Sequence record: PQ435408.1
DNA from: Escherichia phage vB_EcoP_CU10EC
DNA length: 64,000 nucleotides
Reading direction: 5' to 3' (one strand)
In this document: positions 19,698 to 20,192 of the stretch, one piece after another
How the letters are laid out: every line of letters starts with the position of its first letter
Numbering within the stretch: the stretch's first letter is position 1
Notes under the pieces: generated by a model
Told to the model about the DNA's origin: nothing
The model's input: the letters and a program-made list of their open reading frames with translations, nothing else
The model's database searches: none
Position numbers and translations under genes: made by a program

Positions 19698-20192
19698 TTA
19701 TAGAATTACCCAGTCTTCTGCTAATACATCTGACTGGGATGCTAACCATGGTACTAATTTATCATCTGCTGTTTTCATGCAGATAAATGGTAACGTATGC
19801 AGCCCATCCACCCCGTGAATGTCGCATTCAAAATCCCAAGCCCCTCCGGATACCATGAACAGGAACATACCTTTTCCATTCCAACCTTTACGGGCTAGTT
19901 TGTAGCCTGATTTGAGAAGCTCTAATGCATGACCAAAGGTACAACCTTTTTTCGTGTCACGGTATGCTTCTTCAAACGCAGATTTTGGTGACCAGCTAAT
20001 ATAGCCACGGAACTGAGGATGGTTGGACTTAGAGTCTGGGTACTCGACTAAGTAACCCTCTTCTAGCGTATTTTCATCTGCTGGTAAATACCAGCCACGA
20101 AGTTTGCAGTATGTTTCTTTGCTCATCGGGAAACCATTTACACACTTGGTTCCGATATAGTTGGTGAAATGGACTTTAATTTCTTCTGACAT
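19698..20192 (-). CDS. Protein with C-terminal DUF2829-like (Thoeris anti-defence Tad2-like) domain and N-terminal extension
   Basis: C-terminal ARKGWNGKGMF ... LPFICMKTADDKLVPWLASQSDVLAEDWVIL matches my recollection of the DUF2829 signature; start moved to ATG 20192 because the ORF-track N-terminus reads through a hairpin. Confidence 0.4.
   Translation of the reverse strand: MSEEIKVHFTNYIGTKCVNGFPMSKETYCKLRGWYLPADENTLEEGYLVEYPDSKSNHPQFRGYISWSPKSAFEEAYRDTKKGCTFGHALELLKSGYKLARKGWNGKGMFLFMVSGGAWDFECDIHGVDGLHTLPFICMKTADDKLVPWLASQSDVLAEDWVIL

What the first reader, a model, noticed from the sequence alone, without database searches (positions are those of the whole stretch)
19698..20192. Possible DUF2829 (Thoeris anti-defence Tad2-like) domain fused to an uncharacterised N-terminal domain
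The C-terminal ~75 residues (ARKGWNGKGMF ... LPFICMKTADDKLVPWLASQSDVLAEDWVIL) match what I recall as the DUF2829 signature. That family includes Tad2, which sequesters the gcADPR signal of Thoeris defence. Here it follows a ~85-residue N-terminal domain with no obvious match (MSEEIKVHFTNYIGTKCVNGF ... YRDTKKG). A Tad2-like sponge with an extra domain in an N4-like phage could be an uncharacterised anti-defence variant.
Basis: inference. Interest (0 to 1): 0.55.

Follow-up and report, generated by a model that had tools for sequence, protein, structure and literature searches.

The report
Two-module Tad2 anti-Thoeris sponge gene
This phage gene encodes a genuine Tad2-type "sponge" that should soak up a bacterial alarm molecule, joined to a small unnamed domain that turns out to be attached to six different sponge families and whose own job is still unknown.

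Summary

The architecture is not rare. The gene is the ortholog of phage N4 gp49 (68% identity), and thousands of two-domain homologs exist. It lies in the published N4-like "anti-signalling hotspot" beside the virion RNA polymerase, flanked by a Sequestin homolog and an Acb4 homolog.

The new result concerns the N-domain. It is homologous (hhalign 98%, E 1e-13) to the N-terminal domain of RyR Tad, described in a June 2026 preprint as a strand-swapped dimer element of unknown function with no anti-Thoeris activity alone. Among 150 representatives it is fused, in any order, to Tad2, Sequestin, Acb4 and Acb2-like domains. Fusions to Lockin and RyR were also found. It also occurs as a free-standing ORF.

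Most likely the protein is a Tad2 sponge for TIR-made ADPR signals carrying a portable dimerising module. That module may have its own target.

Verdict: new variant of a known kind, moderately interesting, with a clear experiment to do.

The parts
19698..20192 (-). Whole gene: 164-aa two-module protein (N-domain + Tad2 domain), ortholog of phage N4 gp49
   Evidence: ORF and translation. 68% identity over the full length to N4 gp49. PHROG 872 full-length, E 2e-64.
19953..20192 (-). N-domain (residues 1-80; folded core about 9-79: four beta strands and two helices). Uncatalogued 'sponge-associated' module.
   Evidence: No Pfam, NCBIfam or PADLOC hit. AF2 pLDDT 89.5. 1,264 cluster representatives carry it. 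hhalign 98.1% to the RyR Tad N-domain family.
19704..19943 (-). Tad2/DUF2829 domain (residues 84-163) with GWNG loop (W104 N105 G106) and WLASQSD motif (W149-D155)
20197..20201 (-). Shine-Dalgarno GAGGT, 4 nt before the ATG
   Evidence: Read directly from the sequence.
20210..20230 (-). GC-rich hairpin (AAGCCCTC-CTAGT-GAGGGCTT) just upstream of the gene. It is terminator-like for the preceding ORF. Similar hairpins bracket the neighbouring sponge genes.
   Evidence: Consensus scan: 7 terminator-like sites against 2.4 expected.
19258..19461 (-). Neighbour: Sequestin homolog (PF21825 crAss001_48), 67 aa
   Evidence: Pfam E 3.5e-17, 62.5 bits against a cut-off of 24.8. The family was shown to sponge 3'cADPR in 10.1101/2025.07.12.664507.
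19454..19687 (-). Neighbour: 77-aa ORF of unknown function (phrog_9565; weak sub-threshold HTH_17 hit)
20337..20585 (-). Neighbour: 82-aa ORF of unknown function (phrog_29724)
20790..21266 (-). Neighbour: Acb4 homolog (PF13876 Phage_gp49_66). Its C-terminus is altered by a local tandem duplication.
   Evidence: Pfam E 2e-30. 56% identity to N4 gp48. Duplication.
8762..19225 (+). Hotspot boundary: virion RNA polymerase (3,487 aa), convergent with the sponge genes
   Evidence: ORF. Annotated as vRNAP in IME11 and Moonfish.
26343..28553 (-). Hotspot boundary: DNA primase (736 aa). Between it and the sponge genes lie a Sak4-like gene, SSB, a RuvC-like gene (Bes1 class) and a 147-aa unknown ORF.
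   Evidence: phrog_2135 DNA primase 1232 bits and PriCT_1. Layout as described for N4-like phages in 10.64898/2026.06.04.730250.

Best explanation
The gene encodes a two-module anti-signalling protein that an N4-like coliphage expresses from its anti-defence hotspot.

SHOWN here:
- Residues 84-163 are a Tad2/DUF2829 domain, by sequence and by predicted fold.
- The residues that hold the ADP-ribose-derived signal in the solved Tad2 structures are conserved.
- The beta2-beta3 insertion is short, as in SPO1 Tad2.

INFERRED from the family: like SPO1 Tad2, the domain assembles into a tetramer with two pockets between protomers. It sequesters the TIR-made Thoeris signal (3'cADPR / 1''-3' gcADPR, possibly also His-ADPR or N7-cADPR), so the Thoeris effector is never switched on. 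It probably lacks the second, cyclic-dinucleotide pocket of HgmTad2.

SHOWN here: residues ~9-79 are a separate beta-sheet module with no database family. It is homologous to the N-terminal domain of RyR Tad. It recurs fused in any order to six unrelated sponge families, and it also occurs as a free-standing ORF.

INFERRED from the RyR Tad crystal structure in the preprint: the module pairs two chains by swapping its first beta strand, so here it would cross-brace Tad2 protomers.

Because free-standing copies persist at the same hotspot, and because its ~25 near-invariant positions do not depend on the partner, I judge it somewhat more likely than not (about 0.55) that the module also has a target of its own. 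That target cannot be identified from sequence.
For: Tad2 domain:
- PF11195 E 9.2e-27.
- PDB phmmer E 1e-18 to 5e-14 to ModTad2, SPO1 Tad2, HgmTad2 and SptTad2.
- SPO1 contact residues W25 N26 I63 T65 D67 H71 W73 S76 T78 D79 map to W104 N105 M139 T141 D143 V147 W149 S152 S154 D155.
- HgmTad2 W21 N22 G23 W87 L88 S90 T92 D93 map to W104 N105 G106 W149 L150 S152 S154 D155.
- W104, N105, T141, W149, S152 and D155 are invariant in 39 homologs.

Context:
- Sequestin (PF21825) and Acb4 (PF13876) homologs lie within 1.1 kb on the same strand.
- The locus runs from vRNAP to primase, with SSB, Sak4-like and RuvC-like genes. This is the hotspot described in 10.64898/2026.06.04.730250.

N-domain:
- 1,264 representatives.
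- Partners among the best 150 by Pfam: Tad2 52, Sequestin 43, Acb4 19, Acb2/Tad1 hairpin 2.
- Orders seen: N-Tad2, Tad2-N, N-Seq, Acb4-N-Seq, N-Acb4, Acb4-N. Eight are stand-alone.
- N-Lockin fusions.
- hhalign 98.1%, E 1.4e-13, to gp68_N and its stand-alone relatives.
- HMM 24 bits over the full length.
- Foldseek E 1.5e-4, TM 0.70, to the RyR-domain protein of Yersinia phage TG1.
- Strand-swapped dimer reported.
- A stand-alone 71-aa ORF sits in the gp68 slot of CB1-like contigs.
Against: - No binding or phage assay exists for this protein or for any N-domain-bearing Tad2 that I could find.
- Ligand specificity within Tad2 is plastic: gcADPR, His-ADPR, N7-cADPR, cUMP/cCMP and cyclic dinucleotides in different homologs. 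It cannot be read from sequence. The best PDB match is ModTad2, the His-ADPR binder, and S154 matches ModTad2 rather than the Thr of SPO1 and Hgm.
- Tad2, Acb4, Lockin and Sequestin all oligomerise without the N-domain, so a bracing role is not obviously needed.
- A two-fold strand swap has been seen only in one divergent, minimal homolog that lacks the RGW, DEN and NHP motifs of the long form.
- Oligomer modelling could not be run.
- The inter-domain orientation in the AF2 model is uncertain (pTM 0.68).
Confidence: 0.68

Rival explanations
1. The N-domain is itself a new family of immune-signal sponge (or another direct inhibitor of signalling immunity). On this view the protein is a dual inhibitor, like the known Tad2-Acb4, Acb4-Sequestin and Tad2-Sequestin fusions, in which each module neutralises a different signal.
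For: - Its recognisable fusion partners are almost exclusively sponge families: Tad2, Sequestin, Acb4, Acb2-like, Lockin and RyR. Only two of 150 carry something else (AP2, HNH_3).
- Sequestin was discovered by exactly this fusion logic, but that screen looked only at Pfam families, so a domain without a Pfam entry was invisible to it.
- The module takes any position, including between two sponges, as an independent unit would.
- Free-standing copies are conserved at the hotspot.
- About 25 positions are at least 90% conserved regardless of partner, including K16, R32, W34, E40, N57, S66, W67 and S68.
Against: - gp68_N alone showed no activity against type I Thoeris.
- Full-length RyR Tad was reported to bind only NAD-derived ligands, which its C-domain pocket explains.
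- The conserved surface motifs (DEN..DEGYLVEY.DGG) are acidic rather than the positively charged pocket typical of nucleotide sponges (read from the sequence).
- It was not among the families reported by the structure-guided sponge screen.
Confidence: 0.3
2. The N-domain is only a structural clamp (strand-swap dimeriser, or a solubility or stability aid) with no target of its own. The protein is functionally just a Tad2 sponge.
For: - The crystal structure of the homolog RyR Tad shows beta1 swapped between protomers, with both domains contributing to the dimer.
- The C-domain alone was sufficient for activity, and the N-domain alone was inactive.
- Weak fold resemblance only to generic SH3/Tudor-like small barrels (Z no higher than 4.5).
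Against: - A pure helper should not persist as a free-standing, conserved ~70-aa ORF (P0271-P0275 at 65-81% identity, more than 20 contigs). Nor should it survive as 8 of 150 stand-alone long-form proteins.
- All partner families self-assemble without it: tetramer, tetramer, dimer and hexamer.
- Conservation is as strong as in the ligand-binding Tad2 domain: 14 against 13 invariant positions.
Confidence: 0.3
3. The protein is an anti-CRISPR of the AcrIIA7 type (a Cas9 inhibitor), as several GenBank records annotate its orthologs.
For: - The Tad2 domain matches AcrIIA7/HgmTad2 (8kbi, 9kzr) at E about 1e-17.
- Orthologs in phages Mimir124, 24-32N and phi1_146050 are labelled 'anti-CRISPR protein'.
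Against: - The original anti-Cas9 claim lacked a demonstrated Cas9 interaction, and DUF2829 proteins were re-assigned as signal sponges (discussion of 10.1101/2023.05.01.538930).
- HgmTad2 binds gcADPR and cGG in crystal structures.
- E. coli carries type I-E and I-F CRISPR systems, not type II-A (established knowledge).
- The neighbouring genes are signal sponges, not Acr genes.
Confidence: 0.03

Closest known systems
SPO1 Tad2 (Gp34.65; PDB 8SME/8SMF/8SMG), the founding Thoeris anti-defence 2 sponge
   Same: - Same Pfam family.
- Same predicted fold: alpha1, five-stranded antiparallel sheet, alpha3.
- A short beta2-beta3 insertion (about 21 aa here against 24 aa).
- 8 of 10 ligand or water-coordinating residues are identical or conservative.
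   Different: - SPO1 Tad2 is a single-domain 89-aa protein. This one carries an extra ~80-residue N-terminal module.
- H71 is replaced by V147, I63 by M139 and T78 by S154.
- Host and phage type differ: Bacillus myovirus against E. coli N4-like podovirus.
Phage N4 gp49 (RefSeq YP_950527, 'DUF2829 domain-containing protein')
   Same: Full-length ortholog at 68% identity with the same two modules. It occupies the same position, immediately before the convergent vRNAP gene and next to the Acb4 homolog.
   Different: - N4 lacks the Sequestin gene and the 77-aa ORF that sit between this gene and the vRNAP here.
- The insertion loop of the Tad2 domain differs.
- I found no held paper that tests N4 gp49.
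RyR Tad (gp68 of Pectobacterium phage vB_PatP_CB1; bioRxiv 10.64898/2026.06.04.730250)
   Same: - Same N-terminal module: hhalign 98.1%, E 1.4e-13, and a shared K.V.A.PM / EGYLV.Y / Y.SWSP..VF core.
- Same kind of protein: N-module plus a gcADPR sponge.
- Same hotspot in an N4-like phage.
   Different: - The sponge module is a ryanodine-receptor Repeat12-like helical domain, not Tad2.
- gp68_N is a minimal version lacking the RGW, DEN and NHP motifs and the long loop of the form found here.
- It sits next to the primase rather than next to the vRNAP.
HgmTad2 / AcrIIA7 (PDB 8KBI-8KBM)
   Same: 52% identity over the aligned Tad2 core. The gcADPR pocket residues are conserved.
   Different: HgmTad2 has a 41-aa insertion that builds a second pocket for cGG and cGAMP (R31, S47, F70, N85). 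Here the insertion is about 21 aa, the alignment breaks into two stretches, and N85 falls in a gap. The cyclic-dinucleotide pocket is therefore probably absent.
Sponge-sponge fusion proteins (Tad2-Acb4 of phage Pm86; Acb4-Sequestin of phage Ab09 gp59)
   Same: Small multi-module anti-signalling proteins built from portable units, encoded in phage anti-defence loci.
   Different: In those fusions both modules are proven sponges. Here the second module has no demonstrated ligand.

Membership tests
Tad2 / DUF2829 (PF11195) | Profile match above Pfam's gathering score | tested here: met
   93.8 bits against a cut-off of 25, E 9.2e-27, profile positions 2-72 of 73.
Tad2 / DUF2829 (PF11195) | Tad2 fold: N-terminal helix, antiparallel beta sheet, short C-terminal helix | tested here: met
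Tad2 / DUF2829 (PF11195) | Conserved signal-binding residues (GWNG loop; W-x-x-S-x-T/S-D after beta4) | tested here: met
   W104 N105 G106, W149 L150 S152 S154 D155, M139 T141 D143. These map onto the SPO1 and HgmTad2 contact residues, and most are invariant in 39 homologs.
Tad2 / DUF2829 (PF11195) | Homotetramer with two inter-protomer pockets | not testable with these tools
   Only monomer prediction was available. Needs AF-Multimer/AF3, SEC-MALS or a structure.
Tad2 / DUF2829 (PF11195) | Binds and releases a TIR-made signal intact; rescues phage from Thoeris | not testable with these tools
   Needs biochemistry and plaque assays.
Tad2 / DUF2829 (PF11195) | Encoded by a phage or prophage in an anti-defence context | tested here: met
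   Sequestin and Acb4 homologs flank it. The locus lies between the vRNAP and the primase.
HgmTad2-type dual sponge (gcADPR + cyclic dinucleotide) | Long (~41 aa) beta2-beta5 insertion carrying R31, S47, F70 and N85 | tested here: not met
   The insertion is about 21 aa. The phmmer alignment to 8kbi splits into two stretches that skip the insertion, and N85 aligns to a gap.
RyR Tad N-terminal domain family (unnamed; 'fold of unknown function') | Sequence-profile homology to gp68 residues 1-66 and its stand-alone relatives | tested here: met
   hhalign 98.1%, E 1.4e-13, 67 columns. HMM built from Tad2-fused N-domains scores 24.1 bits, end to end.
RyR Tad N-terminal domain family (unnamed; 'fold of unknown function') | Same fold | tested here: met
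   Foldseek against BFVD: the RyR-domain protein of Yersinia phage TG1 at E 1.5e-4, probability 1.00, TM 0.70. The RyR Tad crystal structure itself is not in the held PDB copy.
RyR Tad N-terminal domain family (unnamed; 'fold of unknown function') | Strand-swapped dimer (beta1 donated to the partner's sheet) | not testable with these tools
   Reported for gp68. Multimer modelling was not available.
Known sponge families as identity of the N-domain (Sequestin PF21825, Acb4 PF13876, Acb2/Tad1, Lockin, TadIV-1) | Profile or sequence match of residues 1-83 to the family | tested here: not met
   - No Pfam hit at E up to 10.
- Lockin sequences are unrelated and occur as a separate module fused to the N-domain.
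- TadIV-1 is a helical hairpin.
- N-domain against the protein's own Tad2 domain: hhalign 0.3%.
Tad3-Tad8 (protein binders of ThsB/ThsA; Cell 2025, doi 10.1016/j.cell.2024.12.035) | Sequence or fold match of the N-domain to any of them | not tested
   The paper and its sequences are not held. Indirect evidence only: there is no PDB match, and Fedorova et al. annotate Tad3 in the same figure yet still call gp68_N a fold of unknown function.
AcrIIA7 anti-CRISPR | Inhibition of type II-A Cas9 | not testable with these tools
   Sequence similarity exists only through the shared DUF2829 domain. The function is disputed.

The most novel reading that the evidence does not exclude
The ~75-residue N-domain is a new, widespread family of anti-signalling module: a sponge for an immune signal not yet tested, or a binder of a host immune protein. 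It was missed so far because it has no Pfam entry. Phages combine it freely with Tad2, Sequestin, Acb4, Acb2-like, Lockin and RyR modules to build multi-target inhibitors. N4 gp49 and this gene would then be dual inhibitors.
Probability: 0.3. Interest if true: 0.8.

Novelty: new variant of a known kind. Interest (0 to 1): 0.55.

Why it matters
Tad2 is one of the main ways phages silence TIR-based (Thoeris) immunity. Every Tad2 studied so far, as far as I could check, is a single-domain protein. This gene represents a very common two-module form, found in model phage N4, other N4-like coliphages, P22-like phages and many prophages, and it has not been tested.

The extra module has no database family, yet it is linked to six unrelated sponge families and also stands alone in anti-defence hotspots. 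That is the kind of association that led to the discovery of Sequestin.

If the module has its own target, it adds a new family to the phage counter-defence repertoire and a search handle for others, namely the unrecognised domains fused to it. If it is only a clamp, it shows how phages stabilise or combine sponge assemblies.

Either way there is a cheap, well-defined experiment in a model phage (N4 gp49). The result also bears on phage therapy, because N4-like phages are used clinically.

Tried and rejected
1. Internal duplication. The N-domain motif 'YLVEY..GYISWSPK..FE..Y' looked like the Tad2 'FICMKTADDKLVPWLASQSDVLAEDW'. hhalign of the two halves of alignment A1 gave probability 0.3%. Rejected.

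2. N-domain = Lockin, Sequestin, Acb4, Acb2/Tad1 or TadIV-1. There are no profile hits, the folds differ, and Lockin and the others appear as separate modules fused to it. Rejected.

4. The RyR Tad crystal structure is not in the held PDB copy.

5. PADLOC gave no link to defence proteins. NCBIfam gave nothing.

BFVD was used instead.

7. Tad3-Tad8 identity could not be checked. The Cell 2025 paper is not held, and the EVADES supplements lack the sequences.

8. A search for any paper linking N4 gp49 to Tad2 found none.

9. The longer 210-aa GTG-initiated reading of the ORF was rejected: it has no RBS, it runs through a hairpin, and homologs do not use it.
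Full report
**1. The observation**

The window has an ORF at 19698-20192 on the minus strand. The ATG is at 20190-20192 and a GAGGT ribosome-binding site lies four bases upstream. The mechanical ORF list also offers a 210-aa GTG-initiated version, but that one runs through a GC-rich hairpin at 20210-20230. None of the homologs use it; they all begin MSEEIK or METK.

The genome is N4-like. The region is 96.6% identical to Escherichia phage IME11 (Gamaleyavirus, Schitoviridae), and the 3,487-aa virion RNA polymerase ends 470 bp away on the other strand.

**2. 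The C-terminal half is a Tad2 domain**

- Pfam PF11195 'Tad2-like' matches residues 85-163 at 93.8 bits (cut-off 25), E 9.2e-27.
- phmmer against all PDB chains finds ModTad2 (9EIB, 8V3E), HgmTad2/AcrIIA7 (8KBI, 9KZR), SPO1 Tad2 (8SME, 8WJE) and SptTad2 (8WJD) at E 1e-18 to 5e-14. Every match covers residues 81-163 only.

The residues that hold the ligand in the crystal structures are conserved.

| Reference protein | Reference residues | Residues here |
|---|---|---|
| SPO1 Tad2 | W25, N26, I63, T65, D67, H71, W73, S76, T78, D79 | W104, N105, M139, T141, D143, V147, W149, S152, S154, D155 |
| HgmTad2 | W21, N22, G23, W87, L88, S90, T92, D93 | W104, N105, G106, W149, L150, S152, S154, D155 |

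The mapping follows the alignments. W104, N105, T141, W149, S152 and D155 are invariant across the 39 aligned homologs.

The loop between beta2 and beta3 is about 21 residues, as in SPO1 Tad2 (24). HgmTad2 has a 41-residue insertion there that builds a second pocket for cyclic dinucleotides, so that extra pocket is probably absent here (inference).

Which ADPR-derived signal is bound cannot be read from sequence. Different Tad2 homologs take 3'cADPR, His-ADPR, N7-cADPR or even cUMP/cCMP. The closest solved relative by sequence is the His-ADPR binder ModTad2.

**3. The architecture is common, not peculiar**

A search of 5.8 billion proteins returned 5,484 hits. The best 120 are all about 150-210 aa and cover more than 90% of the query at 50-98% identity. 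They include proteins from Haliea, Campylobacter concisus and Novosphingobium genomes.

In RefSeq, phage N4 gp49 ('DUF2829 domain-containing protein', 160 aa) is a 68%-identical full-length ortholog at the same position, next to the vRNAP. N4 gp48 is the Acb4 homolog.

tblastn finds the N-domain in 123 phage records infecting Escherichia, Vibrio, Klebsiella, Pseudomonas, Erwinia, Rhizobium, Acinetobacter, Aeromonas and Clostridium. Examples are an N-Tad2 protein in the P22-like phage Kapi1 and an N-Acb4 protein in Clostridium phage CP51.

**4. The N-terminal half**

Residues 1-83 hit nothing in Pfam (E up to 10), NCBIfam or PADLOC. Their only hits are PHROGs of unknown function.

The domain is confidently folded: pLDDT 89.5 when modelled alone, with strands at 10-13, 17-24, 45-51 and 64-69 and helices at 25-32 and 70-76. 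It is as conserved as the Tad2 half, with 14 against 13 invariant positions among 39 homologs.

An exhaustive phmmer search with residues 1-83 against 1.84 billion cluster representatives found 1,264 proteins at E ≤ 1e-3 and 549 at E ≤ 1e-10. The domain sits at the N-terminus, in the middle or at the C-terminus of proteins 86-658 aa long.

I scanned the best 150 against Pfam. Partner families found:

| Partner family | Members |
|---|---|
| Tad2 | 52 |
| PF21825 crAss001_48 | 43 |
| PF13876 Phage_gp49_66 | 19 |
| Acb2/Tad1 hairpin | 2 |
| AP2 | 1 |
| HNH_3 | 1 |

PF21825 is Sequestin and PF13876 is Acb4. Both are proven signal sponges.

My own domain census of the same 150 proteins:

| Architecture | Count |
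|---|---|
| N-Tad2 | 47 |
| N-Sequestin | 31 |
| Acb4-N-Sequestin | 10 |
| N-Acb4 | 5 |
| Acb4-N | 5 |
| Tad2-N | 2 |
| Sequestin-N | 1 |
| Other triple-module combinations | 3 |
| Essentially stand-alone | 8 |
| N plus extensions I could not assign | 38 |

Several of the unassigned extensions are frameshifted or degenerate Tad2 domains, and one is an N-Lockin fusion. N-Lockin fusions also appear in the Lockin homolog table of Tal et al..

That paper found Sequestin by asking which Pfam families are fused to Tad2 or Acb4. A domain with no Pfam entry could not surface in that screen, and the text does not mention it.

**5. Link to RyR Tad**

A June 2026 preprint (10.64898/2026.06.04.730250) describes an anti-signalling hotspot in N4-like phages between the virion RNA polymerase and the primase. 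The hotspot holds Tad2, Tad3, Acb4, Sequestin and RuvC-like Bes1 genes. The same preprint describes a new gcADPR sponge, RyR Tad (gp68 of Pectobacterium phage CB1).

[quoted passage not shown] In the crystal dimer this domain swaps its beta1 strand with the partner. Expressed alone, it had no activity against type I Thoeris, whereas the C-domain alone was sufficient.

I fetched gp68. The comparisons gave:
- A profile built only from Tad2-fused N-domains aligns to gp68 residues 3-65, end to end, at 24 bits.
- hhalign between our N-domain alignment and gp68_N plus its relatives gives 98.1% probability, E 1.4e-13, over 67 columns.
- Foldseek against BFVD independently matches our N-domain model to the RyR-domain protein of Yersinia phage TG1 (E 1.5e-4, TM 0.70). 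That is the protein CB1 gp68 is annotated as resembling.

So the two domains are homologous. gp68_N is a minimal version that lacks the RGW, DEN and NHP motifs of the long form.

The closest relatives of gp68_N are all free-standing proteins of about 70 aa. On full-length CB1-like contigs, such an ORF occupies exactly the gp68 slot after the primase. There, the sponge domain looks like an optional appendage on a resident N-domain gene.

**6. Context in this window**

On the minus strand, starting from the vRNAP:

| Coordinates | Feature | Evidence |
|---|---|---|
| 19258-19461 | Sequestin homolog | PF21825, E 3.5e-17 |
| 19454-19687 | 77-aa ORF, unknown function | phrog_9565 |
| 19698-20192 | The N-Tad2 gene | see above |
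| 20337-20585 | 82-aa ORF, unknown function | phrog_29724 |
| 20790-21266 | Acb4 homolog | PF13876, E 2e-30 |
| 21544-21703 | Two tRNAs | ARAGORN, Rfam |
| about 21700-23550 | ORF-poor stretch (the ORF-poor interval begins at about 21300 and includes the tRNAs) | ORF lists |
| 23697-24140 | 147-aa ORF, unknown function | phrog_7641 |
| 24142-24696 | RuvC-like gene, Bes1 class | phrog_159 |
| 24696-25493 | SSB | phrog_743 |
| 25534-26286 | Sak4-like gene | phrog_124 |
| 26343-28553 | Primase | phrog_2135 |

This is the published hotspot layout, with three sponge families within 2 kb.

**7. Mechanism**

What is shown is a Tad2 domain with an intact pocket, in an anti-signalling locus. What is inferred from the family is a tetramer that sequesters a TIR-made ADPR signal and thereby blocks Thoeris. 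I put this at about 0.85 for 'signal sponge' and lower for any particular ligand.

For the N-domain, the only direct evidence is strand-swap dimerisation in one divergent homolog. In our protein this would tie Tad2 protomers together through a linker of only about 5 residues.

Several facts speak against a purely structural role:
- Free-standing conserved copies persist.
- All partner families self-assemble without it.
- Its conservation does not depend on the partner.

Other facts speak against a conventional nucleotide sponge:
- gp68_N was inactive against type I Thoeris.
- Full-length RyR Tad was reported to bind only NAD-derived ligands.
- The conserved surface motifs are acidic.

My estimates are roughly 0.3 for 'clamp only', 0.3 for 'new sponge', and the remainder for another autonomous role such as protein binding.

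The anti-CRISPR label on some orthologs derives from AcrIIA7. It is unlikely to apply to an E. coli phage.

**8. Novelty and verdict**

The gene belongs to the Tad2 family, is the N4 gp49 ortholog and sits in a described hotspot, so its existence is not new.

Three things are not in the literature I could search:
- This very common Tad2 form carries the same module as RyR Tad.
- That module is joined to six unrelated sponge families and also stands alone.
- No N-domain-bearing Tad2 has been tested. None of the 18 Tad2 homologs in 10.1101/2025.08.24.671296 contains the motif, and no paper links gp49 to Tad2.

I rate it a new variant of a known kind with moderate interest (0.55). There is a 0.3 chance that the N-domain is a new anti-signalling family, which would be considerably more interesting.

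Noticed in passing
window 20522-20908: Near-perfect tandem amplification: 155 bp x2 at 99% and 77 bp x2 at 100%. Compared with IME11, a ~158-bp segment spanning the Acb4 stop codon and the start of the 82-aa ORF is present about 2.5 times. It gives the Acb4 homolog an altered C-terminus (...GGGSRICMSKLRAKKC instead of ...GGGGCKI) and creates two small chimeric ORFs (20585..20740 and 20740..20844). It could be a recent duplication or an assembly artefact.
   Followed up: partly
window 21631-21703 (-): A second tRNA next to tRNA-Ile (21544-21622). Rfam RF00005 scores it 36.7 bits against a gathering score of 29, but ARAGORN did not call it. The surrounding ~2 kb (21300-23550) is ORF-poor, and its translations contain T-arm-like 'GFEP/GIEP/GLEP' strings. 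The same gap exists in IME11 and N4.
   Followed up: partly
window 19231-19254, 20210-20230, 21273-21304 (- strand): Three similar GC-rich hairpins (for example AAGCCCTC-CTAGT-GAGGGCTT), each followed by T-rich tails, bracket the Sequestin, N-Tad2 and Acb4 genes. The scan found 7 terminator-like sites against 2.4 expected. They could be terminators, or cassette boundaries that favour gene exchange in the hotspot.
   Followed up: no
window 19258-19461 (-) and 20790-21266 (-): Sequestin (PF21825, E 3.5e-17) and Acb4 (PF13876, E 2e-30) homologs flank the gene. That puts three sponge families within 2 kb of the vRNAP gene. IME11 and most relatives annotate them as hypothetical proteins.
   Followed up: yes
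window 24142-24696 (-) and 23697-24140 (-): A RuvC-like protein (phrog_159, E 3e-42) in the position of Bes1, followed by a 147-aa ORF of unknown function (phrog_7641) in the position where Bes2 lies in Pseudomonas phage Ab09. Both Bes proteins were reported to give broad evasion of signalling defences by an unknown mechanism.
   Followed up: no
L004 (phage N4, NC_008720 33632-34485): A naming mismatch. Pfam PF13876 is titled 'N4 Gp49/phage Sf6 gene 66'. In RefSeq N4, however, gp49 is the N-domain-Tad2 protein, and the PF13876/Acb4 member is gp48.
   Followed up: partly
L007-L009 (CB1-like contigs), gene at 5001-5216: A free-standing 71-aa N-domain ORF sits exactly where CB1 has the two-domain RyR Tad gp68, right after the primase. 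This suggests that the RyR sponge domain was gained or lost at the 3' end of a resident N-domain gene.
   Followed up: partly
proteins P0163, P0174, P0215, P0219, P0230, P0266 and others: N-domain proteins whose 60-130-residue C-terminal extensions match none of Tad2, Sequestin or Acb4. By the same fusion logic, they are candidates for further unrecognised sponge-like modules. P0159 and P0212 share an extension motif and, by my inference (not confirmed per protein), may be the two Acb2/Tad1-hairpin hits. P0199 carries Lockin.
   Followed up: no
window 19454-19687 (-): A 77-aa ORF between the Sequestin and N-Tad2 genes. It overlaps the Sequestin start by 8 bp, matches phrog_9565 (unknown function), and has only a weak, sub-threshold HTH_17 hit. 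It is absent from N4.
   Followed up: no
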